Positions 7,557 through 40,340 of a DNA stretch of 64,000 bases are shown piece after piece (within the stretch, counting starts at the first letter, position 1; every line of letters begins with the position of its first letter). The stretch spans positions 49,187 through 113,186 of the forward strand of contig CAZCTY010000001.1 of assembly GCA_964501945.1 (NCBI GenBank). The letters run 5' to 3'. The position numbers and the translations under genes are program-made. The notes under the pieces were generated by a model that saw only the letters and a program-made list of their open reading frames with translations, had not been told where the DNA came from and made no database searches. This DNA comes from an uncultured Methanosarcinales archaeon (GTDB taxonomy: Archaea > Nanobdellota > Nanobdellia > Woesearchaeales > 21-14-0-10-32-9).

Positions 7557-7718
7557 ATGAAAAAGCAACTAAACATAAGACTTAGCGAAGAAATACGCAC
7601 CCAAGCTAAAATAACTGCTATTCTAAAAGGACTAACATTAAACGAGTACATAGAGAGAGCTATAAAAAAAGAACTCGAAAAAGATCAAAAAATAAACAAT
7701 TCAAAAAACAAAAAATGA
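7557..7718 (+). CDS. Small (53 aa) ribbon-helix-helix (CopG/Arc-like) DNA-binding protein
   Basis: MKKQLNIRLSEEIRTQAKITAILKGLTLNEYIERAIKKELEKD reads as a beta-strand followed by helix-turn-helix. Its TGA stop overlaps the ATG of the next gene (ATGA at 7715..7718). Confidence 0.5.
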   Translation: MKKQLNIRLSEEIRTQAKITAILKGLTLNEYIERAIKKELEKDQKINNSKNKK

Positions 7719-11340: not shown

Positions 11341-11358
11341 AAAAACCTCATAAATACA

Positions 11359-12105: not shown

Positions 12106-12154
12106 TTTTTTCTTCTCTATTTTTTATTTTTTATAAAAAAAACAAAAAAAGAAT

Positions 12155-15190: not shown

Positions 15191-18100
15191 TTAAATTATC
15201 TCAATGTAAAAAGCCAACTTCTCATTACTACCAGAATAAGTCCTAAGCGTAGCAGGCACCCTGACTTCAAAGTCATAAATACCGAAACGACCCTCGCTAC
15301 TAGGATTAATCTCAGTAACAAAAACAACAGTTTCTTTGTCTGCAGAGTCAAAACGCTCATTACCAGAATCATCACTAGTATCCCAAAGGATGCCAGTAAC
15401 AAAATCATCATACTCAGTACTCGCAACAACAGGAACATTATTAACAGGGCCACTTGGAAGATTAAAAGTACGAGTCTCAACAGGCACCTCAGAACCCGCG
15501 CCCCACGTATTCCTAATAGAATCACTAAGACCCGCCGTGCCCATAACATCATCTAACGCAGAAAAATCACCACTCACAAGGCCGCCATCAACGTTCCGAG
15601 TGAGCGCTTGCAAATCACCATAAGAAAAGGACGCATCAACATCAGAAAAGAAAACCAAACCTCCTCTACTAGAGAGATTACGATACTCAATGAACATAGA
15701 CAAATCATCCTTACCAAGAACAATATCAGAACTAGAACTACCAAAATAATACTGATAAAGCTCAACATACAAAGAATTATTAGCAACATTGTTATCAACA
15801 GTAGTTTCATTAACAACGTCCTCAGGATCAACCACCACAAAAACATTATTAGAACCAAAAGACAAATCAAAATCAGCACCAACACTTACAACATCCAAAC
15901 TACCAAGCCCAGGAACTAAAGACGAGCTAATAAACTCCCCTCCCTCAACAGGATTACCAAGATAAAAAGAAACATTAAATGACTCCTCAGCATCACTAAG
16001 ACCCTCATTAGAAACATTAGCAAAAACACTAACCTCAACACCCTCAATTAACTCATCATAATCAAACCAAATATCATCATCACGAACAACCAAGTCAGGC
16101 GCAGAAATATTCAACAAGAAGTTCTCATCCGCAAAACCAACATTATCATAAGAATCAACACACTCAACGTTCCACTCATGAATACCAATATCAACAAGAA
16201 CACCCTCAAAAGTATTAGTTTCATTACTCACAACGTTAACATCAGTAACAACTTCCTCCAAGACACCACCATTACTACCCAAAAACAAAGTACAGTTATC
16301 CAAATTAAAATCATAAGGACGATAACTAAAATCAAACAAGCCCCTACCAGCCTCAAAACCATCCTCAGGATTAATAAGTGAAACATTAGGAGGAGTCACA
16401 TCAGGTGCAACCTCAAAAGTTGTAAAACTAGTCGCATCATCATAAGATTCAGCAGACGCTAAAACAACAGACGAATACAAACCTAAATCAACCCCTTGAG
16501 TATTCCACGAAAAAGAATCACAACCACAACTACCACTAGTCTCACCACTAAAAGAATCAACAAGAACTTCTTCACCAGAGACAAGAACCTCATCAACATC
16601 AGAATCTTTGATGTAAGTAACATTTAACTCAACCCAATACAAATACATAGTAATAGTAGCAGCCCCGCCACTCTTTACAACTTCTCCCTGAAGCCTAGTC
16701 CTATTAAGCTCAGACCAAGAAAGAGAAGAATAAGACTCAGTGATATCAAACCACTGCGAAGTCGTCTTACCAATAGTACCAGAAAAACGATTTAACTCAG
16801 TATAACTAGCACCATCATCAACACTATAATGAAAAATCCTATTACTGGCGCCTCCGCTCTCAGGCACCTCATACCTAAATCTGGCCTCAACTCTTTCAAT
16901 ATCCCCAAAAGTTTCATCAATAAAATCACGCCCATGAAGCAAAACATAACGATCACCACCACCGCTAGCCTCAATTACCGCGAAAGAATCATCATCCTTA
17001 CCAAGAATACTATCCAAATCAGAAAAAGAACCCCCTTCTTCATCATCAATATCACGATCATTAGCATTAAATAAAGCACTCTCAACCAAATCAAGCTCAA
17101 CAGAAGGACCGCCGGCGTTAGGATTATCATAATAAACATAATAAGAATCATAATTAACAATGTTAGCGTCAAGATTAACAGCGAAAGATACAAAACAAGA
17201 ATCAAGCGTTTCCCCATGAACAGTAAACAAAGACTCAACAGGATCTAAAGACTCATGATTAACAAACCTTAATTCATCACAACTCTCAACGCTACCCTCA
17301 AGACCGGTAATATTAACACTAGCCACGCCATCAACTAACTCAACACCAGAAGTTTCATTCATAACAATATTTCTTCTTCTACCCCAATCAGAATCCCACC
17401 AAGGAACACCAGTTTCACCACTAATAATGAACGCATCAAAAAAAGTATTAAGAGGACTTAAAAAAGCATCAGTACTATTAACCAAAATAGACGCAGGCGT
17501 GCCCACCTCCCATGAAGCCTCAGTCGAGACTTCAATGTTAATAGTATCATCATCAACACCAGTAAAAAAACGAGTCTCACTAACACCAGTATTATCAAAT
17601 ACATCAGTACACTCAACCCTCCAAGAATAATCATCCTCAACAACGCTTAGAGAAAAAAACTGAGAGGTGAACCTAGCAACATCCTCATCAACCTGATTTA
17701 ATTCACCATTAACATACAAAGAACAACTCTCAATAGGAGATGAATCATTAACATTATAATTTAAACTCCGCGTCCCAGTAGAAATTAAAGAATTATTACC
17801 AGGACTCTCAAGCAAAACAACAGGAGGAGACACATCTAAAACATTAACAGAATAAGTAATATTATCATAAAAATAATTATCAGTCTCATTGAAAACCAAA
17901 GAAACATTATAAGAACCAGGATCCTCAAATAATAAATCTTCCTCAACAAAACCATTACCAGAAGATATTAAATCATTATTCAAATACAATTCTAAATAAC
18001 CCTCATCAGGAATAGCAACGTCTCCTGCGATGCTTACAACTTCATTTTCATCAATAACCAAATCATCCTCAACACCATTTAAAGAAAGACTAAACACTGG

Positions 18101-21100
18101 CAAAGACTTATTAACAAAATAAGAAAAAGAAGACGTCTCATTAAAATTACCAGAAGAATCATTAGCAAACCAAGAATAACTATAAAGACCAGCATCCAAA
18201 TCCTCAACTGAAAAACTATAAACACCATTAACTAAAAATAATTCTTTTTCAACAAATTCACCAGAGAAATTATGCTGAAGTAAAACAGTATCAACCCCAA
18301 AATTATCCTCCCAAGAAATATTAAAATAATAAACCCTCTCAGCATAACTAACAGGAGACTGCGGGCTAACAACGATGTCGCTATATTCAGGAGCCTCAGT
18401 ATCAACACTCAAAGAAAAATTCTCAGAGGCAAAACTCACCCTAGAACTTTTATCAACACATAAAACATTCCAAGAAAAAGAACCACTAGGAACACTAACA
18501 CTAAAAACGTTTTGTGAACCACTAACAGGACTTGAATCACTCGCGGTTTCCTCAAAAGAACCACTAACATTACTATACAAAAAACACTCATCAAGATTTT
18601 CATCAAAAGGAGTGTACACAAAATTCACATCATCAAAATTTAAAAAAGCACCATCCTCAGGAATGTTCAAATCAACCACGGGGTCAGTCAAATCAACAGT
18701 GAAAAACTCAACACTCGAAAAACCAATATTATTCTCAGAACTATTATCAACGCAAGAAACACTCCAATTATACAAACCCTCAGAAAAATCACTAAGAGAA
18801 AAAGTATTAACCTCAAAATTATCAACACTAAAACTTTGAGCATCTAACTCATCATCAACAAACAAAGAACAACTCTCAATGCCAGTCGCATCCTCAACTA
18901 AGTATTCAAATAAAATACTAGATGAATTCAAAAATTCATCACTCTCAGGATTTAAAAGAGAAATAACAGGAGGATCAGTATCCAAAGATTCAACAGTTAA
19001 AAAACGAGAATCACTAACCTCAAAGTTACCAAGAGAATCAAAACAACGAACGTTCCACTCATAATAATTATTAGATAAAAAAGTAGACATATTAAAAGGA
19101 ACCTCATCAACAATATCGCTCTTAGTTTCTCTAACAGAACCATTAACTAATAATTCACAATAATCAATACCAGAAACATCACAACACGCACCCGCAGAGA
19201 AAGTTACAACGTTAGTATCATCAATCAAAGCACCATCATCAGGACTGAACAAAGAAATATCAGGGCCGGATTGATCAATAATAAAAGACCACGCATCAGA
19301 AATACCATCATTACCAGCCTCATCAAAACAATGAACCTCCCACTCAAAAGTATTTTCAAACAACTCACGCTCAAAAGAATTAACAACACCTTCAATAGGA
19401 GAAGAATCCACATCAACAACTTCTAAGACGCCAGACTCATTTGTATGCAACTCACAATGACTAAGCGTGTTTTCCTCACTTGGAATATATGAAAAAGAAA
19501 CCAAAGAATCACTAGTTAAAAAATTATCAACAGGAGCTTCCAAACTAACAACAGGAGCAGTCCTATCAGTTATGTACTTGAAAACACTACTAGACTCAAC
19601 AGAATTACCAAATACATCATACGCAATAACCTTCCAATAATAAATGCGGTTAGCATCCAACGCGAAATCTAAAGAATACTCACTTTGAGAAATACTACTA
19701 GATGAGTAAACAAAATCAGGACTGCTAAGAGAAGGATTATCAGCAATGATTAAAGTGTAATTATCAAAATCAGGAGTCACAGTCTCCTCCCAAGACATAG
19801 TCGGATTTAACTCACGAGACTCCGTAGCATTAAGAGGATTTAACAAATCAAATTCGGTGGGAGGCACAACTTCAACCTCGAACCACAAATCAACACTTTT
19901 CTCACTGCTCTGACCAAGAGTATCGTTCGCCCAAATATTAGTTATGTTGTAAATGCCCTCATCTAAAGTATCTGTGAAAACAAAAAAGAATTCATCACCA
20001 TCTCTTTCTAACTCATGCTCAACAACAGAAGAATCAGGATACATCGCGGTTATAGAAGCAATATCAACACCGAAACTATCAGTTATACTAACACTAAAAC
20101 GAACAGACCTGTTCTGTCTTATGATTGTTTCATTAAGTGCTTCATTTTCAATTAACGGAGGCTGAGCGTTAATAAAAACAGTCCTATTATCATCAGCGAA
20201 AGCAAATCTTTCATCCTCGTTCTCACACCTAACGTTCCACTCATAAACACCATCACTAGGACTAAGACTAAAACTAGTAAGCGTATCAGTATCTACATCA
20301 CTGAGAGTAGCAGAAATATCCCATGAACCAGTAATATTAGTATAAAGATCACAAGTTAAAGTAGAATAAGTCTCATCACTAGCACTAAATGAAAAGTCTA
20401 CTGGGGTGTTAGAAACAATCTCATTATCACCAGGCGCACTCAAAGAAACCTCTGGCGGAGGCGTACCAGTATCAACTTCCAAGTAAGCCGCATAAACAAC
20501 GGCATCAGTAGGCCTACCACCACTCGCTCTTTCAACATGTCCAAAATGAACACTCAAATCATCAAGAGAACCAGAAGGATCACTCCAAGTACAACTAGAC
20601 CAAGAAGTAGAACTACCTCCTGGAACGAGATTACTACAAACAGTAGTTCCGCCTTGCCTTAAAGAATAAGTAAACTCAGCAGTATTACCAGTATTAGAAT
20701 ATACCCACAAAGTAATCTCCTCAACACCTGTCTCAACAACACTAGAAAAACCAAACTCAGACTCTTCCTCATCACCCATCCCACTTGCTATGCTGGTAGC
20801 GGTACTAGGCGCACTGGGCTGACGAGTACCTTTGCTGATTTGCGTGTAAGAAGTACCAGAACCAGAACTCCACTCAGTAGTTATATCGCTTGTAGGATCA
20901 TAATACGTAATAGGATCAATAGCCAAGTACCAAGGACGAGCCTCTTCAAATAATTTAACCTCACTTTCTTTCTCATAATCAATGAAACTTTGAAAAGCCC
21001 AAAGATACGGAATAATAAAAGGAGAATTAAAACTATATGAGGCAGAAAAATCACCATTTAAATTACTCCAAGTCAAATAAATATTATCAGCATCACGCGT

Positions 21101-22600
21101 CTTAACCGCGGAACCATAATCCTCAACAGAGAAACTAGAAGGCAAAACCTCTGTAAAAGAATAATCACTAATATTAACCCTAGGAGATACATTAACACTT
21201 GATTTAAAAGGACCTTGATAAGGATCAATAGTCACAGGAGTATCCCTTATAATATCAAACTCGTACTCATCACGCACAACAAAAAAAGAAACCATAGAAT
21301 CATCAACATTCCGCCCAATAGCAGACACACCCAAATCATACCTGCCCTCAACACTAGTTGTATGATTCAAATAATAAATACCAGTACCTGCATCAACTAT
21401 ATCAGACGGACCATACTCAAAGAATTCACCACGAGGATCAGTGATATTAATAATGACATCCGCGCCAGGAGTTAAATAACCATCACGATCAAGAACAACC
21501 ACAACTAACTCAGCCACATCACCTGATTGATAAATAGATTTTTTAGAATTAATAGACGCAACACCAGTTTCAGCATAAGCATTATCATCAGATTTACTCA
21601 AAACAAGCTCATATTCCTCACCAGGCACCAAGTCTTTGACCTTACTCCAACTACCTTCACATTCTTGAGATTCAAAAACCCAAGAATCACACATCAACAA
21701 CTCAGAACCCTCAGCAACATTAACCAAAACAATCTCGTCAAATTCAAAATCAAAACCAAGAGATAAAATCTTACTATTTTTATCATTTAAACGAACATTT
21801 CGAATCTCCTCCAACCCAAAACGAGCATTAGGAGAATTATCAAAACCCCGCATCTTAATTTCTCTAACGCCCAGGCCACGAGGCTGAATATTAAAATCAG
21901 AAACATCACCAGAAGACAAAACACCAACGCCTCGACTCGCATCCTCAGACACATCAATTTTAACATCCCTAAAATTACCACGAGAATTAACAACACCAAA
22001 AGGAGCCATCGAAGATTCAACGTCCTCAACAAAGAAAACACCTTCAAAAGTCTCTCCTGAATCATCTTCAACTAAAACATAGTATTCACCAGGCTCAGAC
22101 GGGAAAAAACTAACAGGAAACGTAGGAGTCCCAGAGAAAGAAAACTCACGCTCACCAAATTTAATAACTAACTTATTAACATTTAAATCCTCAGATAAAT
22201 CAATCTCAACCTCCTCACCAATCCTATAATTCTCACGCCCAGTAAAAACAACATCGTCTGGGCTAGCATCAAAAGACTCCTCAGCAAAACCATCTTCTCC
22301 GATAACAGAAAAAGAAGCACTACCAACAATATCAGAACCATTAATAACATTAATAACATAATCCCCAGAGCTTTCAGGAAAAAAACTATGACTTCCAAGA
22401 ACGTCCCCAACCATTCTAAAAACACGATCATCATGAACAATTTCTAAACGAGTACCATTAAAAGAGACATAAAAATCAACTTGCACCCCCAAATCAAAAA
22501 CATCATCTTCTAAATCAACAAAGCCACTAACAAAAGGTACAAAAGAGAGAAAACTAATAATAAACAAAATACACAATCCCCAAAAAATCCTTCCCCTCAT
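15191..22600 (-). CDS. Giant (2469 aa) secreted cell-surface protein built of tandem approximately 95-aa beta-sandwich modules; conserved B/C-like C-terminal domain
   Basis: The signal peptide ends in FVPFVSG. There are at least 10 modules ending in a Y-x-W-x-V-x-C-x-D-x-x-G-N motif (YEWNVRCENEDE, FEWEVHCFDEAGN, YEWNVRCFDSLGN, YNWSVSCVDNS, FSWNVLCVDKS, YSWRVECTDVFDN, HEWNVECVDSYDN). N-x-S/T sequons are very frequent. The C-terminus TGILWDTSDD..FEVRVPATLRTYSGSNEKLAFYIEII aligns with the B-family proteins. Confidence 0.8.
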   Translation of the reverse strand: MRGRIFWGLCILFIISFLSFVPFVSGFVDLEDDVFDLGVQVDFYVSFNGTRLEIVHDDRVFRMVGDVLGSHSFFPESSGDYVINVINGSDIVGSASFSVIGEDGFAEESFDASPDDVVFTGRENYRIGEEVEIDLSEDLNVNKLVIKFGEREFSFSGTPTFPVSFFPSEPGEYYVLVEDDSGETFEGVFFVEDVESSMAPFGVVNSRGNFRDVKIDVSEDASRGVGVLSSGDVSDFNIQPRGLGVREIKMRGFDNSPNARFGLEEIRNVRLNDKNSKILSLGFDFEFDEIVLVNVAEGSELLMCDSWVFESQECEGSWSKVKDLVPGEEYELVLSKSDDNAYAETGVASINSKKSIYQSGDVAELVVVVLDRDGYLTPGADVIINITDPRGEFFEYGPSDIVDAGTGIYYLNHTTSVEGRYDLGVSAIGRNVDDSMVSFFVVRDEYEFDIIRDTPVTIDPYQGPFKSSVNVSPRVNISDYSFTEVLPSSFSVEDYGSAVKTRDADNIYLTWSNLNGDFSASYSFNSPFIIPYLWAFQSFIDYEKESEVKLFEEARPWYLAIDPITYYDPTSDITTEWSSGSGTSYTQISKGTRQPSAPSTATSIASGMGDEEESEFGFSSVVETGVEEITLWVYSNTGNTAEFTYSLRQGGTTVCSNLVPGGSSTSWSSCTWSDPSGSLDDLSVHFGHVERASGGRPTDAVVYAAYLEVDTGTPPPEVSLSAPGDNEIVSNTPVDFSFSASDETYSTLTCDLYTNITGSWDISATLSDVDTDTLTSFSLSPSDGVYEWNVRCENEDERFAFADDNRTVFINAQPPLIENEALNETIIRQNRSVRFSVSITDSFGVDIASITAMYPDSSVVEHELERDGDEFFFVFTDTLDEGIYNITNIWANDTLGQSSEKSVDLWFEVEVVPPTEFDLLNPLNATESRELNPTMSWEETVTPDFDNYTLIIADNPSLSSPDFVYSSSSISQSEYSLDFALDANRIYYWKVIAYDVFGNSVESSSVFKYITDRTAPVVSLEAPVDNFLTSDSLVSFSYIPSEENTLSHCELHTNESGVLEVVDVDSSPIEGVVNSFERELFENTFEWEVHCFDEAGNDGISDAWSFIIDQSGPDISLFSPDDGALIDDTNVVTFSAGACCDVSGIDYCELLVNGSVRETKSDIVDEVPFNMSTFLSNNYYEWNVRCFDSLGNFEVSDSRFLTVESLDTDPPVISLLNPESDEFLNSSSILFEYLVEDATGIESCSLFVDDELDAQSFSVDNFEVNTFSLSDFSEGLYNWSVSCVDNSSENNIGFSSVEFFTVDLTDPVVDLNIPEDGAFLNFDDVNFVYTPFDENLDECFLYSNVSGSFEETASDSSPVSGSQNVFSVSVPSGSFSWNVLCVDKSSRVSFASENFSLSVDTEAPEYSDIVVSPQSPVSYAERVYYFNISWEDNFGVDTVLLQHNFSGEFVEKELFLVNGVYSFSVEDLDAGLYSYSWFANDSSGNFNETSSFSYFVNKSLPVFSLSLNGVEDDLVIDENEVVSIAGDVAIPDEGYLELYLNNDLISSGNGFVEEDLLFEDPGSYNVSLVFNETDNYFYDNITYSVNVLDVSPPVVLLESPGNNSLISTGTRSLNYNVNDSSPIESCSLYVNGELNQVDEDVARFTSQFFSLSVVEDDYSWRVECTDVFDNTGVSETRFFTGVDDDTINIEVSTEASWEVGTPASILVNSTDAFLSPLNTFFDAFIISGETGVPWWDSDWGRRRNIVMNETSGVELVDGVASVNITGLEGSVESCDELRFVNHESLDPVESLFTVHGETLDSCFVSFAVNLDANIVNYDSYYVYYDNPNAGGPSVELDLVESALFNANDRDIDDEEGGSFSDLDSILGKDDDSFAVIEASGGGDRYVLLHGRDFIDETFGDIERVEARFRYEVPESGGASNRIFHYSVDDGASYTELNRFSGTIGKTTSQWFDITESYSSLSWSELNRTRLQGEVVKSGGAATITMYLYWVELNVTYIKDSDVDEVLVSGEEVLVDSFSGETSGSCGCDSFSWNTQGVDLGLYSSVVLASAESYDDATSFTTFEVAPDVTPPNVSLINPEDGFEAGRGLFDFSYRPYDFNLDNCTLFLGSNGGVLEEVVTDVNVVSNETNTFEGVLVDIGIHEWNVECVDSYDNVGFADENFLLNISAPDLVVRDDDIWFDYDELIEGVEVSVFANVSNEGLSDAEESFNVSFYLGNPVEGGEFISSSLVPGLGSLDVVSVGADFDLSFGSNNVFVVVDPEDVVNETTVDNNVANNSLYVELYQYYFGSSSSDIVLGKDDLSMFIEYRNLSSRGGLVFFSDVDASFSYGDLQALTRNVDGGLVSGDFSALDDVMGTAGLSDSIRNTWGAGSEVPVETRTFNLPSGPVNNVPVVASTEYDDFVTGILWDTSDDSGNERFDSADKETVVFVTEINPSSEGRFGIYDFEVRVPATLRTYSGSNEKLAFYIEII

Positions 22601-22641
22601 AATAACAATATAATCACTTAACCTTTTTAATTCTTATTTTT

Positions 22642-31866: not shown

Positions 31867-31867
31867 A

Positions 31868-34800
31868 TTATTTTATCTCCGTATAAAAAATAACCCTCTC
31901 CAAATCAGGACCTTGATACTCACGAAGAGTGGCAGGAACCCTAATTTCAAAATCATTAATACCGCCCTGATAACCAACTTGATCTTTATTAACCTGAGTT
32001 ATGAAAACAACGTTCTCAGAACCCGAATACTGAGAAGACTCAGAATGATCCCACAAAATACCAGTCTTAAAATTATCAGACGTAGTACTATTTACAACAG
32101 GAACATCCTCAATGGTTTGACCAAAAATTTCAAAAGTCACACCACTTAAAATCTCGCCATTCCTAGTATAAGTATTATTAATAGAATCACCAAACTCATC
32201 AGCACCAAGCGCGTTATCAAGCAACACAAAATCCTCCATACGCACATTATCATTTACATCTTTTCCAAGCGCTTGAAGAGTAGTCCACGAAATCTGAGAA
32301 TCAAAATCCGTAACATAAATATTACTACCAGTAGAATTATCAACATTCCAATCAAACAACAAACCAAGAGATGCATCCGTTACGCGAAGAGAATCATCAG
32401 TAGTACCAAGAGCGTAATGCCAAAACTCTACGCTAATATTACGAGAAGCAATGTTGTTATCATAATCACTTTCAACAACTCTCTGATCAGGATTTACCAC
32501 TGCAAAGATTTCAGTGGAACCAATAGGAACATTAAACGATGTAGAAACATTAATAGCAGAGCCCTCACCTAAAGAATCAACATTAATAGTATCGCCTATT
32601 TGATTACCAACAACATCGACCTCATTAGCCCAAAACTCAACATCAAAATCCTCAGCTAAACCCTCCCCAATGTTCCTAATAGTAGCAGTCACATTAATTA
32701 ATTCTCCCTCACGCGGATTAGTCTCATTGAAATAAATCTCAGTGTTATTAACGCTCAAATCAGGAATAGGAACAAAGAACTCCCATGTATCGCTCACACC
32801 AGGATTCCCTGCGAAATCAAAACAAGTCACATTCCAAACATAAAGACCACCAATCAAACCAGTTAACTCAACAATTTCCTCAACGCCATTAGAAACAGAC
32901 AAATCCTCTCTAACAAGATCGTTGTTTAGAGTTACATCACACACTAAAGGATCAGCTATGTTATCAGTAGCAGTAAAACTAAGATTCACATCACTACTAA
33001 AAACCTCAGAATCATTAACAGGATAATTTAAATTAACAACTGGCGGAACAGTATCAATATTAATAATCAAGGTTTCACTAATATTAACATTACCAGCCAA
33101 ATCCTCTGCGATAACGAAGACTTCATAAGAACCATCAGTTAAACCAGAGAGCTCAGATGACGTTACAACGCCATTATTACCAGAACCACTATCTTCCAAA
33201 GAACCATTCACATAAACCTCGTAATCAATAACGTTCGCCAAATCATCTTCTAAAATAAATTCTAAAATGGGCGAATCATTAAACCAAGTATCATTCTCTG
33301 TAACAAAGGAAACACTAGGAGGAACCAAGTCAACATTTAAAGTCCTCGTATTAGAAACTCCAAGAACATTCAAAACAGTAGTATCAATACACTCAACTCT
33401 CCAACTATAAATGCCTTCCATGTTATTTACAAAGAAAGAATTCTGAGCGTCATTTAAAACAGAAGTATCAGTTTGGTTCAGTTCGTCATTAATAAACAAA
33501 GAACACTGCTCAACACCGGTATCATCAAATACGCGATAGACAAATTCCTGATTAGTTACATTAGTCCAAAGATTATCATCAGGACTAATCAACGTAATTT
33601 CAGGAGGAATAAAAACACTAAAATCACGAGTCTCACTCTCATCAACGTTTCCTGCGAGATCACGACAAGTCACACTCCACGTATGATTATCCTCGCTCAA
33701 ACCAAAAACAGATTCTTGATACGGCACACCGTTTAAAACCTGAATGTTCTCACTTTCAACCTCGCCGTTTATGTTAAGATCACAATACAAAACAGGACTC
33801 AACAAATCAGTAACAGTCCAATTAAAAACAATCGGACTCTCATCTAATAATTCATCTTGCAAAGGATTATGAAGTTCAACTTCAGGAGCTAATAAATCAA
33901 CATAAAAAGAAAAAGGCTCAGGCGCAAAAACATTATTATCAAGATCAGTACACGCAACAGTCCAATTATACTCACCCTCATCTAAATCATCAAGCTCAAA
34001 AGTGTTCAAATTCTTATTTAAAACAGAACTCGTAGATTCAATTACTTCATCATTAATTATTAATTCACATTGAGAAATACCAAAATCATCCTCAGGCAAA
34101 TAAGTCAAAGTTACACTATCAGTATTAAACCAAGAATAATTTTCAGGACTAACTAATGTAACATTAGGAGGCGCATCAACCTCAAAGAAAAACTCCTCTG
34201 ACTGATTATATAAGCCTGCGATGTCAGAACAAAAAACACTCCAAGAATAATTCCCATCAGGCAACAAATAACTAAAATTATGAACAGTATTATTTTCAAC
34301 AAGCAAACTGTCTGGTGTAAGCGAATAAGTATCAACAACAGGCTCATACTCAGTTAAAATAACATCACAATACATCTCAGGACTAACCTCGTCCCTAGCT
34401 AAAAAACTAAACGTGACATTATTAAAAATTTCAACTGTTTCATTTAACGGATTAAACATTAAAATTTCGTAAGGAGGCTCAGTATCAACATAATAAATCC
34501 AAGAATCATCAGCAGAACCAGTCATATCATTAGTATCTGTGCACTGAACGTTCCACCCATAAGCACCATCATCCATGTTCTCAACTAAAAAAGTACTAAC
34601 CTCTCCAAGAGGAGCATCACTAATAGTATCAACAACATCATTATTTAATATCAAAGAACAAACAGGGAATTCCCCACTACCCTCGCTTGGAATAAAACTA
34701 AACTCAGTATCCTGAGAATCACTACCAGTATTATTCGCAGGACTTACAAGAGTAACTTTCGGAGGCAATAAAACCTCGAAGTTAATAGTATCACTAACAT

Positions 34801-37800
34801 TAATGTTCCCAGCTTCATCACTACAAGCAACACTCCAATTATATGAACCAGTAAAAAAACCACCAATCTCTACAGCTACCTCAGAGTTGTTTTCAACAAT
34901 TAAAGATTCAACTAATTCATCATCCAAGAAAACATCACAAGACATATTACTTGAGAATTCATCAATAACATTAAACCTAAAATCATAAGATGACGTTTCA
35001 ACAACTTGCGCATCTAAAGGATCTAAAAGAGATAAACTAGGAGGCGTCCTATCAACGACGAAACTCCAAGTATCGCTCACATTAACATTAGAAAACATAC
35101 CTGAATCCTGACACAAAACACTCCAATCATACAACCCTTCATCTAAATCAGGAACCAAGAAACTAGAAAGCTCACCACTTGAAACATTAGATGAATTACT
35201 CATCTCAAATTCATCGTTTAAATACAACTCACAAAAATCAAAACCATCATTATCAAACGCAAAATAAGACAAATTAATAACTAAATCATTTAAATGAGAC
35301 CCAATAAGAGGAGAATCTAAATTAATAGTAGGGCTTTCATTAATAGTAAAATCACGAGTCTCACTAACATTAACATTACCACCAATATCAACACACATAA
35401 CATTCCAATCATGAAAACCATCAGGCAAACCACTAACAGTTTCTGAAACAGTAACACCGCTCGTAGTGTTAGAGCTAAAAAGAGGCTCATCATTAAAATT
35501 AACAGTACAAGTTAGAGGGTCCCAATTATCAAAACCAGTATAAGAAAACAAAACACTAGAATCTGGGAAATAAGCATCATTAACAGGGCTGTGAAGCTCA
35601 ATAGTCGGTGGAGTAAAATCACCAAAGAAAACCCACGTATCACTAATACCAGTATTATCATTTGAATCTAAACACTCAACGCGCCAAGAATAAGCCTCTT
35701 CCAAGGCATTAAAAGAAAAAGAATTAACTTCATTAGGAACAACCCCTGTATCAGTTTCCTCAAGAGTATCATTTATGAAAAGAGAACATTGCTGCAAACC
35801 AAAACCATCAAACGGAACATACTCTAAAGCGACTGGGCTTGTATTGACGCCGGTAAAATTTTCAGGACTCACCAATTCAACAACAGGAGGAACATCAACA
35901 ATACTAAGATTAAAAGTATCACTAACATTAACATTGCCTGCCAAGTCTTCACACTCAATTCTCCAAGTATAATTACCAATATCAAAACCCTCAACTGTAA
36001 CATTAGACACAGTATCATTAAATGAAGTAACACTCTCAGTTAGAACATCATCAACAAAAATATTACAAGTCATCTCAGAAGACCTAGCATCACGAACAAT
36101 CCACTCAAAATTAACCCAAGACTGAGTCAGAGTATCCTCAGGGATTTGAGGGCTGAAAATGTTTAACTCGTATGGAGGAGTTCTATCAACATCAAAAAAA
36201 GAAACATTAGACTCACCAACAAGGCCACCTATATCAACACATGTAACACTCCAATTATAACTATTCTCACTTAAGCCAGAGACACTAAAAGAGTTCTGAG
36301 AATTAGCACTAGGAGACGTATCAGTGTCCTCAAGAGAACCATCAACGTATAACTCACAATAATCAAGAGTTGAAAAAGTTTGAGGAGTATACAAAAAATC
36401 AATAGGCTCATCATTCACCCAAGAATTATTCTCAGGGAAATCAAGACTAATAACAGGAGGCTCAGTAGTCGCAACAATAACTTCCTCAAAATCACTAACA
36501 GCAGAAGAATACTTTGACTCGACCAAACAACGAACATCAACAACACCAGGAGTTCCACCCTCAAGTGAAATAGTTACAGGCACAGTAGAATTAAAAACAT
36601 CACCTGCAAACTCAGGATTACTTTGCTCAGAGCCAAGAACAACAACACCTGATGTACCAACATCGCTCCAAGAACCACCACTGCGAACCTGCGCGTAAAC
36701 ATCAACATCCAAACAAGAACCTTGCTCACACGCCACATCACAAACCAAATCAAAAGAACCACCCTGACCAACACTCAAAGACTCATTAGGCTGATTCAAA
36801 AAAGCACTAAGACTACCAATTTGAGTAAAACCAAGAACATCAACAAAACTTTCAGGATGATCAACTAAATGATTAAAACTCCTCGCTTGATTAGGATGAT
36901 CATTTTCAATACGAATAACATAAAACAGAGAATCCGTACTCTCAAGCCTAATATCGCTAGGAATAGAACAAGAACCAATATTCGCACTATTATCACTACT
37001 AGCACTAGTACTCTCCTCAGAACAAATCAAAGTATTATCGCCACTATCAGACCGCTTATATAATTGCCAAGAAGGCGTTAAACGATTATCGCCTGCAGAA
37101 AAATAAGTACTAAAATCAACACTAGAACCGCCACTAATCTCTGCACCATTAGAACTCATAAAAGGACTTGTGGCCTCAACTATGGTTACTGTTTGACCAG
37201 ATGAAACAGAACCCGAAATACTATCTTCATCACCATCAGTTTCTTGCGCTAAACCAATCTCACACGGAAAAGTAGAACAATCACCTGTAGCAGTCTCAAA
37301 CCACAAACCCTCATAAATAACAGGAGGCACATCAACAGTTAAAGACCTAGTATCACTAACCGCATCATTACCTGCAACATCATAACACATAATATTCCAA
37401 TTAAAAACATTATTACTAAAAACACTGCTAATAATAACTTCCTCATCACGAGGAACATCATACAAAGTGTTAACCACGCTATCATTTACTAAAAGAGAAC
37501 AATTACTAATGGGGGAATCATCACTAACCTCAAAAGCAAAAGAAACAACACTAGAATCAGTTTCAACAAAATTATCAATAGGACTTACAAGAGAAATACT
37601 AGGAGGAGTTCTATCAATATGAATCGTCCTATTATTAATCCCCCACGCAACATCGGAGTTCTCATCTTCACATAAAACGTTCCAAGAATAAGAACCCTCA
37701 TCACTAAACGAAGCACTCAAAGAATTAACAGAACCCTCAACGACATTACTAGTAGAATTTTTAGAACTCCAACCACCCTCACTAGTATAAAGAGAACAAC

Positions 37801-39274
37801 TCTCAATTAAAGTAGATTCACTATTTGGAACAAACTCAAATAATTGATCTGGGTCTGCACGAGTAATAAAATTATTATTAGGACTTTCCAATACAACAGC
37901 AAAATCGCCAGGCTCAGTATAATTAATAGTAGTCTCAACCTCATTTAAAATCAAACTAAAATAAATAAACCTGTTCTGATTACCAGGAGCATTATAAGTA
38001 ACATCTCCTTCAAGATGAATATAATAAGTACAATAATCAGGCCAATTATCACAATTATCCTCATTAAATGATTGACTGCCGGTTTCATCAATATCACTAT
38101 TAGTCCAAGTAAGAGTTGAAGGCGTAGTAACACTTGATGAACCAACAAGGATTTCATTACCATTACCAAGAACATCATCATTATCAAAATAACCACTCTG
38201 AGAACTACTAGTTATACTAACAGGACCCGCACTATCAAAATCAGCATCAACAACATAAGTTATTTCCTCTAAGAAAAAAGAAACAGCGTTTTGAGGAACC
38301 TGAATAGTATGCTCACAGACAACACTATCACTAAGAGTGCCACCAGAACCTGTAGTGTCAATTACAAAACCACAATCAAGATCATCATCGACCTCAACAA
38401 ATAAAGGATCCTCAGGAGTTAGAGTGAAAGTGTAAACCTCGCCAGGAGTAATATCACGTTTTTTTTGCAAATCACCAAAACACTCCTGAGTAGAAAAATT
38501 ATACTCTTTACAAATATACAAAGTAGTACCCTCAGCAACCACGGAAACAGTAGCCTCATCAAAATCAACAGTCGTAGGATCAATTGCATAACTTTTAACA
38601 CTATCTCTGCCACGAATACTTATAGGATGCGTGATATCTTCAATACCAAGCCGAGGAGGAGCAGTATCACGCAAGCCCCTAAACAAAATATTTTCAACCG
38701 CGTTAATAGGACGATCCAAGGACAAACCACGACCCCTAAAAGTGCCAACCTCTTCGAACCTAACAGGCCTTTTAACATTCGCATGATTTTCAACAATTAA
38801 ACCACCAGGATTATTAATAAAAGAATCTTTTGAACCATCAACTTTTAACTCAGATAAAAAATCATCAACGTCCTCACCCTCAACAAACTCATCATCAAAC
38901 TCACGCGTATCAACAACAACCTCACTAATAACAATATCAGCAGTTTTATCAAACAATTTTATAACATACCTATCAGGCTCAATCAAATTAAACTTAACAG
39001 GAAACTCAGGAACACCAATATAATTATATACTTGAGAACTAGTCTCAACACTCAAAGACAAATAATCAAAATCATCACCTAAAAGCTCAGGCTCAGTATC
39101 AATAAAAATAACATCCTCCCCAGACACAACTTTTTCTCGAGCAATAAGATCTATATCAGAAAACTCAAAATCAGCAAACCCAGATATAGGGACAAAAAAT
39201 AAAAAAAGAGTAAGAACTAGGACGAAACTACAAAGTACTCCTAACCACCCTTTCTTCAACATCTTAAAAAACAC
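31868..39274 (-). CDS. Giant (2468 aa) secreted cell-surface protein with about 15 tandem W-x-V-x-C-x-D-x-x-G-N modules and a B/C-like C-terminal domain
   Basis: The signal peptide ends in FFVPISGFA. Modules include YSWNVLCEDENSD, FNWNIMCYDVAGN, YNWSVTCVDIGG, YTWRIECEDLAGN, YSWRVECLDSNDN, HDWNVMCVDIGGN, YDWSVLCQDSG, YNWSVACSDEAGN, YGWNVQCTDTNDM, YSWSVFCSDIAG, YNWTVACTDLDNN, HTWSVTCRDLAGN, YSWRVECIDTTV, EVFVIAEDLAGN and YVWNVTCFDFAGN. The C-terminus TGILWDHSE..FEIRVPATLREYQGPDLERVIFYTEIK matches the other giant protein and family B. Confidence 0.8.
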   Translation of the reverse strand: MFFKMLKKGWLGVLCSFVLVLTLFLFFVPISGFADFEFSDIDLIAREKVVSGEDVIFIDTEPELLGDDFDYLSLSVETSSQVYNYIGVPEFPVKFNLIEPDRYVIKLFDKTADIVISEVVVDTREFDDEFVEGEDVDDFLSELKVDGSKDSFINNPGGLIVENHANVKRPVRFEEVGTFRGRGLSLDRPINAVENILFRGLRDTAPPRLGIEDITHPISIRGRDSVKSYAIDPTTVDFDEATVSVVAEGTTLYICKEYNFSTQECFGDLQKKRDITPGEVYTFTLTPEDPLFVEVDDDLDCGFVIDTTGSGGTLSDSVVCEHTIQVPQNAVSFFLEEITYVVDADFDSAGPVSITSSSQSGYFDNDDVLGNGNEILVGSSSVTTPSTLTWTNSDIDETGSQSFNEDNCDNWPDYCTYYIHLEGDVTYNAPGNQNRFIYFSLILNEVETTINYTEPGDFAVVLESPNNNFITRADPDQLFEFVPNSESTLIESCSLYTSEGGWSSKNSTSNVVEGSVNSLSASFSDEGSYSWNVLCEDENSDVAWGINNRTIHIDRTPPSISLVSPIDNFVETDSSVVSFAFEVSDDSPISNCSLLVNDSVVNTLYDVPRDEEVIISSVFSNNVFNWNIMCYDVAGNDAVSDTRSLTVDVPPVIYEGLWFETATGDCSTFPCEIGLAQETDGDEDSISGSVSSGQTVTIVEATSPFMSSNGAEISGGSSVDFSTYFSAGDNRLTPSWQLYKRSDSGDNTLICSEESTSASSDNSANIGSCSIPSDIRLESTDSLFYVIRIENDHPNQARSFNHLVDHPESFVDVLGFTQIGSLSAFLNQPNESLSVGQGGSFDLVCDVACEQGSCLDVDVYAQVRSGGSWSDVGTSGVVVLGSEQSNPEFAGDVFNSTVPVTISLEGGTPGVVDVRCLVESKYSSAVSDFEEVIVATTEPPVISLDFPENNSWVNDEPIDFLYTPQTFSTLDYCELYVDGSLEDTDTSPSANSQNSFSVSGLSENSYNWSVTCVDIGGLVGESNVSFFDVDRTPPYELNIFSPQIPEDTLTQSWVNFEWIVRDARSSEMTCNIFVDDVLTESVTSFNDTVSNVTVEGFDIGNYTWRIECEDLAGNVNVSDTFNLSIVDVPPVVELVSPENFTGVNTSPVALEYVPFDGFGLQQCSLFINDTLEETDTGVVPNEVNSFSFNALEEAYSWRVECLDSNDNTGISDTWVFFGDFTPPTIELHSPVNDAYFPDSSVLFSYTGFDNWDPLTCTVNFNDEPLFSSNTTSGVTVSETVSGLPDGFHDWNVMCVDIGGNVNVSETRDFTINESPTINLDSPLIGSHLNDLVINLSYFAFDNDGFDFCELYLNDEFEMSNSSNVSSGELSSFLVPDLDEGLYDWSVLCQDSGMFSNVNVSDTWSFVVDRTPPSLSLLDPLDAQVVETSSYDFRFNVIDEFSSNMSCDVFLDDELVESLIVENNSEVAVEIGGFFTGSYNWSVACSDEAGNINVSDTINFEVLLPPKVTLVSPANNTGSDSQDTEFSFIPSEGSGEFPVCSLILNNDVVDTISDAPLGEVSTFLVENMDDGAYGWNVQCTDTNDMTGSADDSWIYYVDTEPPYEILMFNPLNETVEIFNNVTFSFLARDEVSPEMYCDVILTEYEPVVDTYSLTPDSLLVENNTVHNFSYLLPDGNYSWSVFCSDIAGLYNQSEEFFFEVDAPPNVTLVSPENYSWFNTDSVTLTYLPEDDFGISQCELIINDEVIESTSSVLNKNLNTFELDDLDEGEYNWTVACTDLDNNVFAPEPFSFYVDLLAPEVELHNPLQDELLDESPIVFNWTVTDLLSPVLYCDLNINGEVESENIQVLNGVPYQESVFGLSEDNHTWSVTCRDLAGNVDESETRDFSVFIPPEITLISPDDNLWTNVTNQEFVYRVFDDTGVEQCSLFINDELNQTDTSVLNDAQNSFFVNNMEGIYSWRVECIDTTVLNVLGVSNTRTLNVDLVPPSVSFVTENDTWFNDSPILEFILEDDLANVIDYEVYVNGSLEDSGSGNNGVVTSSELSGLTDGSYEVFVIAEDLAGNVNISETLIINIDTVPPVVNLNYPVNDSEVFSSDVNLSFTATDNIADPLVCDVTLNNDLVREDLSVSNGVEEIVELTGLIGGLYVWNVTCFDFAGNPGVSDTWEFFVPIPDLSVNNTEIYFNETNPREGELINVTATIRNIGEGLAEDFDVEFWANEVDVVGNQIGDTINVDSLGEGSAINVSTSFNVPIGSTEIFAVVNPDQRVVESDYDNNIASRNISVEFWHYALGTTDDSLRVTDASLGLLFDWNVDNSTGSNIYVTDFDSQISWTTLQALGKDVNDNVRMEDFVLLDNALGADEFGDSINNTYTRNGEILSGVTFEIFGQTIEDVPVVNSTTSDNFKTGILWDHSESSQYSGSENVVFITQVNKDQVGYQGGINDFEIRVPATLREYQGPDLERVIFYTEIK

Positions 39275-40329: not shown

Positions 40330-40340
40330 ACTTCATCCTC

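What the first reader, a model, noticed from the sequence alone, without database searches (positions are those of the whole stretch)
15191..39274. Giant surface proteins: tandem modules with W-x-V-x-C-x-D-x-x-G-N signature, dense N-glycosylation sequons, and module shuffling between paralogs
Around 15 repeats of about 95 aa per protein end in the same Cys-Asp-x-x-Gly-Asn signature. The N-terminal 170-aa module of the 1903-aa protein is found internally in the 2469-aa protein at about 65% identity. Identical 20+ nt DNA stretches occur (for example atcatcaagagaaccagaagga at about 20570 and 31420). This suggests ongoing recombination between the genes and diversification of the exposed surface.
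Basis: seen in the sequence. Interest (0 to 1): 0.6.

Follow-up and report, generated by a model that had tools for sequence, protein, structure and literature searches.

The report
Giant Ig-repeat surface proteins, Woesearchaeota operon
Three very large secreted proteins of a tiny DPANN (Woesearchaeota-type) archaeon are built from 10-15 old immunoglobulin-like modules and sit in a conserved nine-gene operon; they are real and probably form sugar-coated surface fibres, but they are ancient stable paralogs and not genes that are currently recombining.

Summary
The ORFs, the about 91-aa module, the sequon enrichment and the identical DNA stretches are real, but some details are overstated. There are 15, 10 and 10 modules, not about 15 per protein. 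The full signature occurs in only 2-4 modules per protein. The shared N-terminal module is 56% identical, not 65%. The modules are Ig-like (Pfam Big_7, Big_13, Big_3_3) and carry a covarying Cys pair.

The "N-terminal module found internally" is the start of a colinear alignment of 1,600-1,800 aa, so the 1903-aa and 2469-aa proteins are ancient paralogs. Every long exact DNA match lies in register within that alignment. After Dayhoff recoding, orthologs from other genomes group by gene and not by genome. The raw within-genome similarity is an artefact of an extreme strand bias in base composition.

E orthologs keep 20 modules at fixed positions; this window lost five in one in-frame deletion. 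Rare rearrangements at module boundaries do occur in relatives.

The genes belong to a nine-gene operon conserved in Woesearchaeota. It also encodes a membrane HerA/FtsK-type ATPase. This is a new member of a known kind: giant Ig-repeat surface proteins of DPANN archaea.

The parts
15191..22600 (-). Gene A, 2469 aa. Order of parts: signal, about 540-aa head, X beta-sandwich, 8 Ig modules, spacer, Ig9, about 390-aa central region, Ig10, CARDB, about 195-aa conserved C-terminal tail.
   Evidence: ORF; Pfam Big_7, Big_3_3, Big_13, CARDB; module HMM; full-length orthologs at 37-51% identity.
20912..22522 (-). A head region, aa 27-563. It holds a filamin/MG2-like Ig stretch and a conserved Cys pair. 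E and distant relatives share it.
   Evidence: A 104-338 against E 32-289. Weak Filamin and MG2 hits below cut-off. The same region is visible in P0006-P0016.
20459..20911 (-). A X module, aa 564-714. This is the 'internal' copy of D's N-terminal module.
   Evidence: 56% identity to D 34-199. No Pfam or PDB sequence match. The AF2 model is all-beta; pLDDT is 75-94 in the core and below 50 for the first 26 modelled residues.
18113..20458 (-). A Ig-like modules 1-8, aa 715-1496.
   Evidence: Module HMM, i-E-values 1e-13 to 5e-28. In the AF2 model Ig1 has pLDDT above 90.
15779..16099 (-). A CARDB domain, aa 2168-2274.
   Evidence: Pfam CARDB 34.8 bits against a cut-off of 22.7. The AF2 model matches the PF1109 CARDB structure 3idu with TM 0.79-0.85.
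15194..15778 (-). A conserved C-terminal tail domain, aa 2275-2469 (GILWD ... DFEIRVPAxLRxY ... FYxE).
   Evidence: Profile search finds 809 cluster representatives. In all 150 listed the domain lies at the extreme C-terminus. All named examples are Ca. Woesearchaeota. No Pfam or PDB match.
22642..24387 (-). Gene B, 581 aa. It has a signal, an N-terminal region like that of C, one Ig module (aa 239-328) and a C-terminal about 250 aa related to the small 299/291-aa secreted proteins.
24384..26171 (-). Gene C, 595 aa. It has a signal, a He_PIG Ig domain, a PGF-pre-PGF domain (aa 340-442) and a C-terminal TM helix with a basic tail (aa about 563-595). It is the only membrane-anchored product among the five.
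   Evidence: Pfam He_PIG 31.4 bits; NCBIfam TIGR04213 50.8 bits against a cut-off of 28; hydropathy scan.
26155..31866 (-). Gene D, 1903 aa. Order of parts: signal, X module, 8 Ig modules, spacer, Ig9, central region, Ig10, an FN3-like stretch and a D-type C-terminal domain. It is a head-less paralog of A.
   Evidence: Colinear with A 564-2345; orthologs in L001 and L012.
31315..31773 (-). D X module, aa 32-184. This is the 'N-terminal 170-aa module' of the finding.
31868..39274 (-). Gene E, 2468 aa. Order of parts: signal, head, 2 Ig modules, 290-aa Cys-rich insert, 13 tandem Ig modules, CARDB, conserved tail.
32771..36460 (-). E tandem array of Ig modules 3-15, aa 939-2168. Pairwise identity between modules is 18-42%.
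33605..33616 (-). Junction of an in-frame deletion in E, between modules 12 and 13. Orthologous modules 13-17 are missing here.
   Evidence: Eight orthologs carry 20 modules and the window's E carries 15. Modules 1-12 map to ortholog modules 1-12, and 13-15 map to 18-20.
20555..20579 (-). Exact 25-nt match to 31411-31435.
   Evidence: in register with the A/D alignment.
31411..31435 (-). Partner in gene D of the 25-nt exact match.
18945..18977 (-). Longest exact inter-gene match, 33 nt, shared with D at 29807-29839. It encodes DPPVISLLNPE at a module boundary.
41326..45459 (-). Gene H, 1377 aa, in the same operon. Order of parts: TM, about 550-aa ectodomain (CarboxypepD_reg), TM, cytoplasmic HerA/FtsK-type P-loop ATPase, acidic linker, two DUF5752-like domains.
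   Evidence: Pfam DUF87, CarboxypepD_reg, DUF5752; PADLOC HerA and mad8; PDB HerA hits; hydropathy scan.
45456..48443 (-). Gene I, 995 aa, first gene of the operon. It has a signal, PKD, CarboxypepD_reg, one Ig module, a TM helix and a cytoplasmic tail.
39274..41333 (-). Genes G (330 aa, N-terminal DUF5752-like domain) and F (351 aa, coiled-coil). Both are lysine- and glutamate-rich cytoplasmic proteins encoded between H and E.

Best explanation
Region 15191-39274 is the distal part of a conserved nine-gene operon, I-H-G-F-E-D-C-B-A, spanning 15191-48443 on the minus strand. The organism is a Woesearchaeota-type DPANN archaeon.

A, D and E are giant secreted proteins. Each has an N-terminal signal segment followed by long runs of about 91-aa Ig-like beta-sandwich modules of the Big_7/Big_13/Big_3_3 type. 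Most modules probably carry one internal disulfide. The modules are interspersed with uncharacterised beta-rich domains.

A and E begin with a shared head region. They end with a CARDB domain plus a 190-aa tail domain that is typical of Woesearchaeota giant proteins. D is a head-less ancient paralog of A with a different C-terminus.

Inferred mechanism:
- The proteins are exported and N-glycosylated at their enriched sequons.
- They form long, acidic, rod-like fibres on the cell surface.
- The Ig modules act as spacers and the terminal domains mediate binding and attachment.
- The fibres are held through the conserved tail and/or through the small membrane-anchored product C.
- Their likely role is attachment to a partner or host cell, or to a substrate.

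The repeats and the A/D duplication are old and stably inherited. The unusual S/V/F/D-rich, K-poor composition and the apparent extra similarity of the paralogs follow from the operon lying on the G+T-rich strand of a genome with extreme strand asymmetry.
For: Shown:
- ORFs, signal-like N-termini, no internal TM segments, pI about 4.
- Ig-like and CARDB domains score above the Pfam cut-offs.
- The module HMM finds 15, 10 and 10 copies.
- The two module cysteines co-occur: by reading the alignment, 30 modules have both, 7 have neither and none has only one.
- AF2 models are all-beta. Mean pLDDT is 82 and 80. CARDB matches 3idu.
- Sequon excess, z = 4-8.5.
- A and D are colinear.
- The recoded tree separates an A clade and a D clade.
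- E modules are positionally orthologous to those of eight orthologs.
- Gene order is conserved. L012 has all nine genes (with one extra small gene on the opposite strand between E and D), L001 has E-D-C-B-A and L009 has I-H-G-F-E.
- Homologs with a taxon name are nearly all Woesearchaeota, Pacearchaeota, 'Nanoarchaeota' or Aenigmarchaeota.
- The tail domain occurs in 809 cluster representatives; in all 150 listed it lies at the extreme C-terminus.
- Third-codon-position strand bias, and its reversal in L001.
- The A=D, Ao=Do alignment columns are dominated by S/T, V/I, D/N and F/Y.

From the literature: DPANN surface proteins with many Ig-like folds and N-glycosylation sites (bioRxiv 10.1101/2023.10.27.564410), and giant Ig-repeat proteins of nanohaloarchaea proposed to bind hosts (PMC10266531).
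Against: - No experimental evidence exists for export, glycosylation, disulfides, surface location or any binding partner.
- No oligosaccharyltransferase gene lies in the window.
- The head, X, central and tail domains have no characterised homolog, so adhesion is inferred from architecture alone.
- A, D and E have no obvious membrane or cell-wall anchor.
- A structural S-layer role, or a role inside a larger ATPase-driven apparatus, is not excluded.
- A residual excess of within-genome site patterns survives recoding (58 against 19 cross patterns). Some old, short gene conversion therefore cannot be ruled out.
Confidence: 0.8

Rival explanations
1. First reader's reading. The three genes are an actively recombining set of surface-protein paralogs. 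Modules are shuffled or converted between genes to diversify the exposed surface.
For: - Exact in-frame inter-gene matches of up to 33 nt; longer than all but one of 30 codon-shuffled controls, and more numerous (11 against 0-5).
- Raw within-genome A/D identity (44.7%) exceeds cross-genome identity (40.2% and 36.0%).
- SNPs between two 99.7% identical strains are clustered and denser in surface-protein genes.
- Rearrangements at module boundaries exist in the family: the five-module deletion in E and the D-B fusion in L005.
Against: - All long matches lie in register in one colinear alignment.
- DNA identity is about 67% with no long identical tract.
- The within-genome excess consists of S/T, V/I, D/N and F/Y columns caused by strand bias, and it vanishes on recoding.
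- Modules are 18-42% identical to one another and are positionally orthologous across eight genomes.
- The largest strain SNP cluster, the only one searched, has no paralog donor, and the strains differ by no indels.
- No DGR-like repeat pair is present.
Confidence: 0.07
2. The giant proteins are the main structural cell-envelope (S-layer) glycoproteins of the organism, not adhesins.
For: - Archaeal S-layer proteins are acidic, N-glycosylated and rich in Ig-like folds (bioRxiv 10.1101/2023.10.27.564410).
- C carries a PGF-pre-PGF domain, which is typical of archaeal surface glycoproteins, plus a C-terminal anchor.
Against: - There are three proteins of 1900-2500 aa, and the family reaches 7158 aa.
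- They are encoded in an operon with an ATPase and coiled-coil proteins.
- Long linear arrays of 10-20 modules suit fibres better than lattices. This last point is an inference.
- No expression data are available.
Confidence: 0.15
3. The five genes are extracellular parts of one envelope-spanning machine driven by the membrane HerA/FtsK-type ATPase H. This would be a split analogue of the nanohaloarchaeal SPEARE giant proteins. It would both attach to a host and move material across the contact.
For: - H has an ectodomain, a TM helix and a cytoplasmic ATPase, and it is always encoded next to the giant genes.
- An H homolog in L011 is a 2194-aa fusion of a beta-propeller, a TM helix and a HerA ATPase.
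- A DUF5752-like domain recurs six times in five proteins around the giant genes.
- SPEARE proteins combine tandem Ig domains, a TM helix and a VirB4/TraG-like ATPase (PMC10266531).
Against: - Co-location is the only link.
- No channel-forming or other T4SS components were found.
- ATPase family membership scores are far below the NCBIfam cut-offs.
- Homology to SPEARE was not tested.
Confidence: 0.25

Closest known systems
Giant SPEARE-type surface proteins of Nanohaloarchaeota (Hamm et al. 2019, PMC6642349; La Cono et al. 2023, PMC10266531)
   Same: - The organisms are DPANN archaea.
- The proteins have a Sec-type signal, a pI of about 4 and long tandem arrays of about 100-aa Ig-like domains.
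- They are associated with an ATPase of the FtsK/HerA/VirB4 superfamily whose topology is ectodomain, TM helix, cytoplasmic ATPase.
- A role in host contact has been proposed.
   Different: - Here the Ig arrays (A, D, E) have no TM helix or ATPase, and the ATPase is a separate 1377-aa protein (H).
- Sizes are 1.9-2.5 thousand aa, against 5.9-9.4 thousand.
- No WD40 propellers are present.
- A and E carry a specific head and a CARDB-plus-tail cassette.
- Sequence homology to SPEARE was not tested.
Putative S-layer and surface proteins of Nanobdella aerobiophila, Nanoarchaeum equitans NEQ300 and Micrarchaeum harzensis (bioRxiv 10.1101/2023.10.27.564410)
   Same: They are secreted DPANN proteins with several Ig-like folds and many N-glycosylation sequons. 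Some have a C-terminal TM helix, as C595 does.
   Different: Those proteins are about 1000 aa with 4-8 Ig folds. Here there are 10-15 modules (20 in orthologs), three paralogous giants and a dedicated operon. No sequence relationship was established.
Bacterial giant Ig-repeat adhesins (RTX/T1SS adhesins such as SiiE, LapA and MpIBP; Gram-positive adhesins such as the Mobiluncus 51-Ig-domain protein, PMC10619420)
   Same: They are rod-like stalks of tandem bacterial-Ig (Big) modules that project terminal binding domains. Individual modules are stabilised by intradomain cross-links.
   Different: The host here is an archaeon. There are no RTX repeats, T1SS genes, LPXTG motif or sortase. The inferred stabilisation is a disulfide. 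Sequons for N-glycosylation are enriched.
Pfam Big_7 (PF17957), Big_13 (PF19077), Big_3_3 (PF13750) and CARDB (PF07705) domain families
   Same: The modules and the penultimate domain score above the curated cut-offs. In my own recollection, not checked here, the D-x-x-G-N end of the module is the usual C-terminal motif of these Big families.
   Different: The W-x-V-x-C core and the paired upstream Cys are lineage-specific additions.

Membership tests
Bacterial Ig-like domain families Big_7, Big_13 and Big_3_3 (Pfam) | Sequence score above the Pfam gathering cut-off. | tested here: met
   Big_13 scores 96.5 bits in E (cut-off 27), and 29.0 in A and 28.0 in D. Big_7 scores 46.2, 48.2 and 50.8 bits in A, D and E (cut-off 24.1). 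Big_3_3 scores 33.3, 32.0 and 42.6 bits (cut-off 27).
Bacterial Ig-like domain families Big_7, Big_13 and Big_3_3 (Pfam) | Ig-like beta-sandwich fold. | tested here: met
   In the AF2 model the first module of A is all-beta with pLDDT 91-95. Foldseek hits are to Ig, FN3 and PKD domains, for example 4xed with TM 0.69.
CARDB (PF07705) | HMM score above cut-off and CARDB fold. | tested here: met
   34.8 bits in A and 45.7 bits in E, cut-off 22.7. The AF2 model matches the PF1109 CARDB structures 3idu and 2kl6 with TM 0.79-0.85 and E = 5e-7.
Archaeal PGF-CTERM / archaeosortase-sorted surface glycoproteins | PGF-pre-PGF domain. | tested here: met
   C595 residues 340-442 score 50.8 bits against TIGR04213 (cut-off 28). 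A, B and D were scanned and lack it. E was not scanned against NCBIfam.
Archaeal PGF-CTERM / archaeosortase-sorted surface glycoproteins | C-terminal Pro-Gly-Phe motif, TM helix and basic tail. | tested here: not met
   C595 ends ...DTFLSTYFILLFVLVVFVFIHFIFKKRWLGVVR. It has a TM helix and a basic tail but no PGF motif. A, D and E have no C-terminal TM helix.
SPEARE-type giant proteins of Nanohaloarchaeota | Signal peptide plus a long tandem Ig-like ectodomain. | tested here: met
SPEARE-type giant proteins of Nanohaloarchaeota | TM helix and a VirB4/TraG-like ATPase in the same polypeptide. | tested here: not met
   A, D and E have no TM helix beyond the signal and no ATPase domain. A HerA/FtsK-type ATPase is a separate gene product, H, in the operon.
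SPEARE-type giant proteins of Nanohaloarchaeota | Sequence homology to SPEARE proteins. | not tested
RTX/T1SS giant adhesins | C-terminal RTX nonapeptide repeats and adjacent T1SS genes (ABC transporter, MFP, OMP). | tested here: not met
   The five proteins give no RTX or HemolysinCabind hit, and neither the operon nor the flanking genes give an ABC, MFP or OMP hit.
Gene-conversion or cassette-based surface variation systems | Long near-identical tracts shared between expressed and donor copies. | tested here: not met
   The longest exact match is 33 nt. The best blocks are 67-68% identical over about 1 kb.
Gene-conversion or cassette-based surface variation systems | Paralogs within a genome group together (concerted evolution). 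| tested here: not met
   The raw amino-acid tree does group them, but Dayhoff-6 recoding gives an A clade at 148/200, a D clade at 183/200 and within-genome pairs at 0/200. The cause is composition.
Diversity-generating retroelement targets | Template/variable repeat pair and a reverse transcriptase nearby. | tested here: not met
   No repeat pair above 85% identity and 60 nt or longer exists in the window. No RT domain was found in 35 of the 36 main window ORFs; the 165-aa ORF at 58472-58969 was not scanned.
N-linked glycoproteins | Enrichment of N-x-S/T sequons in exported proteins. | tested here: met
   z = 4.0-8.5 against composition shuffles.
N-linked glycoproteins | Sequons actually occupied by glycans. 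| not testable with these tools
   This needs glycoproteomics. No AglB gene lies in the window.

The most novel reading that the evidence does not exclude
The nine-gene operon (15191-48443), together with the flanking proteins that carry a DUF5752-like domain, may encode one envelope-spanning attachment and transfer apparatus of Woesearchaeota. In this reading it is a split version of the nanohaloarchaeal SPEARE architecture.

The membrane HerA/FtsK-type ATPase H (ectodomain, TM helix, ATPase) and the cytoplasmic coiled-coil proteins F and G would be coupled, through a recurring about 80-aa DUF5752-like domain, to giant Ig-repeat fibres A, D and E. The fibres would be docked by a previously undescribed 190-aa C-terminal tail domain. 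That domain defines about 800 protein clusters, with members up to 7158 aa.

Such a machine would be a candidate for the long-sought device by which these uncultivated symbionts hold on to their hosts and exchange material with them.
Probability: 0.2. Interest if true: 0.7.

Novelty: new member of a known kind. Interest (0 to 1): 0.35.

Why it matters
Woesearchaeota are abundant, uncultivated archaea with small genomes, and they are thought to depend on other cells. How they attach is unknown. This locus gives a concrete and conserved candidate: a gene order recurring in at least four other assemblies, and a diagnostic C-terminal tail domain found in about 800 protein clusters.

There is also a methodological lesson. 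In a genome with extreme strand asymmetry, paralogs on the same strand converge in amino-acid composition and codon choice. That convergence mimics concerted evolution and produces identical DNA stretches. Claims of recombination in such genomes need composition-robust tests.

Tried and rejected
- Gene conversion between A and D. Raw identities and the raw NJ tree suggested it. I rejected it after the site-pattern analysis and Dayhoff recoding.
- A paralog donor for the clustered strain SNPs in A. No match longer than 12 nt was found.
- DNA tandem repeats. TRF found only trivial micro-repeats.
- A DGR or cassette mechanism. No repeat pairs and no RT were found.
- A halophile 'salt-in' explanation for the acidity. 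Cytoplasmic proteins have pI 6-10.
- A defence-system or viral origin for the operon. PADLOC and PHROGs gave only generic HerA or terminase-type P-loop hits. The flanking genes are chromosomal: ribosomal protein S2, IMPDH and Hef.
- Function from fold for the X module and the tail. Foldseek against PDB gave only generic beta-sandwich or CARDB matches, and sequence profiles gave no PDB hits.
- A second X-like domain in the central region. Only marginal hits, E = 0.005-0.05.
Full report
**Layout.** Region 15191-39274 is filled by five co-directional minus-strand ORFs. They are A (15191-22600, 2469 aa), B (22642-24387, 581 aa), C (24384-26171, 595 aa), D (26155-31866, 1903 aa) and E (31868-39274, 2468 aa). 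Four more genes lie directly upstream on the same strand: F (351 aa), G (330 aa), H (1377 aa) and I (995 aa). Gaps between the nine genes are 41 nt or less, or the genes overlap, so 15191-48443 looks like one operon.

A-E and I start with a hydrophobic signal-like segment. A, B, D and E have no other TM segment. C has a C-terminal TM helix with a basic tail. The exported products are very acidic (pI about 4) and contain only 2.6-6.9% K+R. Cytoplasmic proteins in the window have ordinary pI values, so this is not a salt-in halophile. Flanking genes include ribosomal protein S2, IMP dehydrogenase, PhoH and an archaeal Hef-type helicase-nuclease, which indicates an archaeal chromosome.

**Checking the observation.** I built an HMM from E's obvious repeats and iterated it on the operon proteins. 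It finds an about 91-aa module 15 times in E, 10 times in A, 10 times in D and once each in B and I. The consensus is PPvvsL.SP...F.....D....C.L..N......G.Y.W.V.C.D..GN..vSD.

- The strict signature W.V.C.D..GN occurs only 2, 3 and 4 times in A, D and E.
- The core W-x-[VILMF]-x-C-x-[DN] occurs 7, 7 and 14 times, against a shuffle expectation below 0.04.
- The two cysteines of the module are present together in 30 modules, absent together in 7 and never present singly (my count from the alignment). This is what an intradomain disulfide predicts.
- Pfam places the modules in Big_7, Big_13 and Big_3_3, all above cut-off. It also finds a CARDB domain near the C-terminus of A and E.
- N-x-S/T sequons are 1.7-3 times more frequent than in composition shuffles (z = 4.0-8.5). 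The cytoplasmic products show no clear excess: z is about 0 for H and 0.9 for F, and a weak 2.3 for G.
- The quoted 22-mer is exactly at 20558 and 31414.
- D's N-terminal module matches A 564-729 at 56% identity, not about 65%.

**Paralogy, not shuffling.** BLASTP shows one colinear alignment, A 564-2345 against D 34-1838, 43% identity over 1831 columns. D is therefore A without the about 540-aa head and with a different C-terminus. The 'internal copy' is simply where that alignment starts.

At the DNA level the best A/D blocks are 67-68% identical over about 1 kb. The longest exact matches are 33, 26, 25 and 20 nt. All sit at offsets of 1587-1596 nt, in register, on conserved peptides such as DPPVISLLNP, TGNTAEFT and PSGSLDDL. 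They exceed all but one of 30 codon-shuffled controls. They are nevertheless expected for homologous conserved peptides in genes where about 67-70% of third codon positions are T. TRF finds no repeat of module period. A whole-window self-comparison finds no near-identical tracts and no DGR-like repeat pair.

**Orthologs and the test for concerted evolution.** A has full-length relatives at 37-51% identity. Where these carry a name, it is Candidatus Woesearchaeota. Gene order in their contigs is as follows.

| Locus | Genes seen in order |
|---|---|
| L001 | E(3044 aa)-D(1901)-C(625)-B(585)-A(2479) |
| L012 (320-kb contig) | all nine genes, I-H-G-F-E-D-C-B-A, with one small opposite-strand gene between E and D |
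| L009 | I-H-G-F-E |
| L013 | a variant of the arrangement |

Raw identities over the shared core looked like concerted evolution. The values were A-D 44.7% and Ao-Do 47.2% within genomes, against A-Do 40.2% and Ao-D 36.0% across genomes, and D-Do 40.8%. However, the 73 columns where A=D and Ao=Do are dominated by S/T (17), V/I (11), D/N (7), F/Y (6) and L/I (4). These are exactly the compositional difference between the two genomes' proteins.

After Dayhoff-6 recoding the orthology pattern wins, 124 columns to 58, and A-D (62.3%) is no longer above A-Do (63.8%). In a nine-sequence NJ analysis, raw data pair A_win with D_win in 160 of 200 bootstraps. Recoded data give an A clade (148/200) and a D clade (183/200), with 0/200 for either within-genome pair. 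The duplication therefore predates these genomes, and the extra similarity is a compositional artefact.

**Cause of the artefact.** Third codon positions of plus-strand genes in the window are 55-66% A and 10-20% T. Those of minus-strand genes are mostly 44-70% T and 9-32% A (the IMPDH gene is the exception, at 36% T and 32% A), and A-E have 63-70% T. At synonymous sites the plus strand is thus about 65% A, 12% T, 16% C and 8% G, whichever way the genes run.

L001 shows the same kind of asymmetry, but there the operon lies on the A+C-rich strand. The same proteins are S/V/D/F-rich and K-poor here and T/I/N/Y/K-rich there.

**Stability of the arrays.** Eight E orthologs at 34-51% identity all carry 20 modules at conserved positions. 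The window's E and its near-identical database copy carry 15. Module-by-module matching against the closest ortholog (P0138) maps E modules 1-12 to ortholog modules 1-12 and modules 13-15 to 18-20, at 46-69% identity. The best non-orthologous match is 44% or lower. Against the more distant P0141 the same mapping holds for 13 of the 15 modules, and the other two are near-ties. Within E, modules are 18-42% identical. So there was one in-frame deletion of five modules in this lineage, in an array that is otherwise ancient and fixed.

A strain that is 99.72% identical over 17 kb (L007) differs by 48 substitutions and no indels. SNP density is higher in the secreted-protein genes. The largest SNP cluster (16203-16268) has no donor elsewhere in the window.

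**Rare rearrangements in relatives.** In L005 the E ortholog is followed by a 627-aa chimera. It consists of D's signal, X module and first Ig module, fused at a module boundary to B from its Ig module onward, and it is followed by the A ortholog. This amounts to a deletion of about 7 kb between Ig modules of two genes. P0005 and a 2505-aa protein in L013 combine the A-type head with the D-type C-terminus. Module-mediated recombination is thus real in the family, but rare.

**Other domains.** The X module, the about 390-aa central region, the head and the 190-aa tail have no Pfam match and no sequence match in the PDB. AF2 models were built from small alignments of relatives.

- The X-plus-Ig1 model shows two beta-sandwiches (mean pLDDT 82).
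- The CARDB-plus-tail model (mean pLDDT 80) confirms CARDB against 3idu and gives a mixed beta/alpha tail with no convincing PDB counterpart.

A profile of the tail finds 809 cluster representatives among 1.84 billion proteins, 646 of them at E of 1e-30 or lower. In all 150 listed the domain lies at the extreme C-terminus, and protein lengths run from about 180 aa (many short hits are fragments from short contigs) to 7158 aa. All the named ones I looked up are Ca. Woesearchaeota. An earlier word-based search also named Pacearchaeota and 'Nanoarchaeota'.

C carries a PGF-pre-PGF domain. B's C-terminal 250 aa are related to small secreted proteins encoded nearby.

**Operon context.** H has a TM helix, an about 550-aa ectodomain, a second TM helix and a cytoplasmic HerA/FtsK-type P-loop ATPase. 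It reaches no curated family cut-off. An about 80-aa DUF5752-like domain occurs six times in five proteins around the giant genes.

The literature describes nanohaloarchaeal SPEARE giants as a signal peptide, about 75 Ig-like domains, a TM helix and a VirB4/TraG-like ATPase, and it proposes roles in host binding and secretion (PMC10266531). It also describes Ig-rich, heavily sequon-bearing surface proteins in cultivated Nanobdella (bioRxiv 10.1101/2023.10.27.564410). This locus looks like a split analogue of that architecture. An H homolog in L011 is itself a 2194-aa fusion of a beta-propeller, a TM helix and an ATPase. Homology to SPEARE could not be tested here.

**Verdict.** 'Giant glycosylated surface proteins with tandem modules' is supported. 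'Module shuffling and ongoing recombination' is not supported for this window. The most likely function is long N-glycosylated Ig-module fibres on the cell surface used for attachment. That function is inferred, not shown. The proteins are new members of a known kind. The conserved operon, the tail domain and the strand-bias effect are the parts most worth following up.

Noticed in passing
whole window 1-64000; L001 for comparison: Extreme strand asymmetry at synonymous sites. Third codon positions are 55-66% A in plus-strand genes and mostly 44-70% T in minus-strand genes (the IMPDH gene is the exception at 36% T). The plus strand is therefore about 65% A, 12% T, 16% C and 8% G regardless of gene orientation. 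In the related contig L001 the same locus lies on the opposite (A+C-rich) strand, and the orthologous proteins swap S/T, V/I, D/N and F/Y and gain K. This is a natural inversion experiment showing mutation pressure reshaping protein composition.
   Followed up: partly
window 7715-10444, 13164-14087, 14211-15179, 40341-41333, 41326-45459: An about 80-aa DUF5752-like domain recurs six times in five proteins that flank the giant genes. It occurs in H (twice), at the N-terminus of G, at the C-terminus of the 307-aa protein, at the N-terminus of the 322-aa protein, and in the cytoplasmic tail of the 909-aa membrane protein. This suggests a shared cytoplasmic docking module.
   Followed up: partly
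window 10441-12931 and 52392-54731 (plus 55594-56349): A three-gene cassette of small, very acidic secreted proteins (299, 248 and 258 aa) is duplicated about 40 kb away (291, 236 and 240 aa, at 64, 50 and 40% identity). A fourth related gene is also present. None has a Pfam match. The C-terminal 250 aa of B581 are 34-35% identical to the 299- and 291-aa proteins.
   Followed up: partly
L005:2-2214: In a related genome the E ortholog is followed by a 627-aa chimeric gene. It joins D's signal, X module and first Ig module, at a module boundary, to B from its Ig module onward. This implies a deletion of about 7 kb between Ig modules of two different genes.
   Followed up: yes
window 15194-15778 and 31871-32443: The 190-aa C-terminal tail domain of A and E defines a family of about 809 protein clusters. 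In all 150 listed it is at the extreme C-terminus, in proteins of up to 7158 aa. The named examples I looked up are all Woesearchaeota. It has no Pfam or PDB match.
   Followed up: yes
window 55501-55593 and 57001-57095: An inverted repeat (81% identity over 96 nt) brackets a 1.4-kb segment. The segment holds a small secreted-protein gene and a 167-aa protein with a sigma-70 region-4-like HTH. It could be an invertible or mobile segment.
   Followed up: no
window 41736-42009: A tandem duplication (76% identity, about 110 nt) lies inside the acidic low-complexity linker of the ATPase protein H (KKEETDENEPENTEKE...).
   Followed up: no
window 16203-16268 compared with L007: Two strains that are 99.72% identical differ by 11 substitutions within 66 nt of gene A (Ig module 10). 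Smaller SNP clusters lie at 17110-17117, 19082-19097, 24746-24789 and 25213-25230. The two cytoplasmic genes in the same 17 kb have none.
   Followed up: partly
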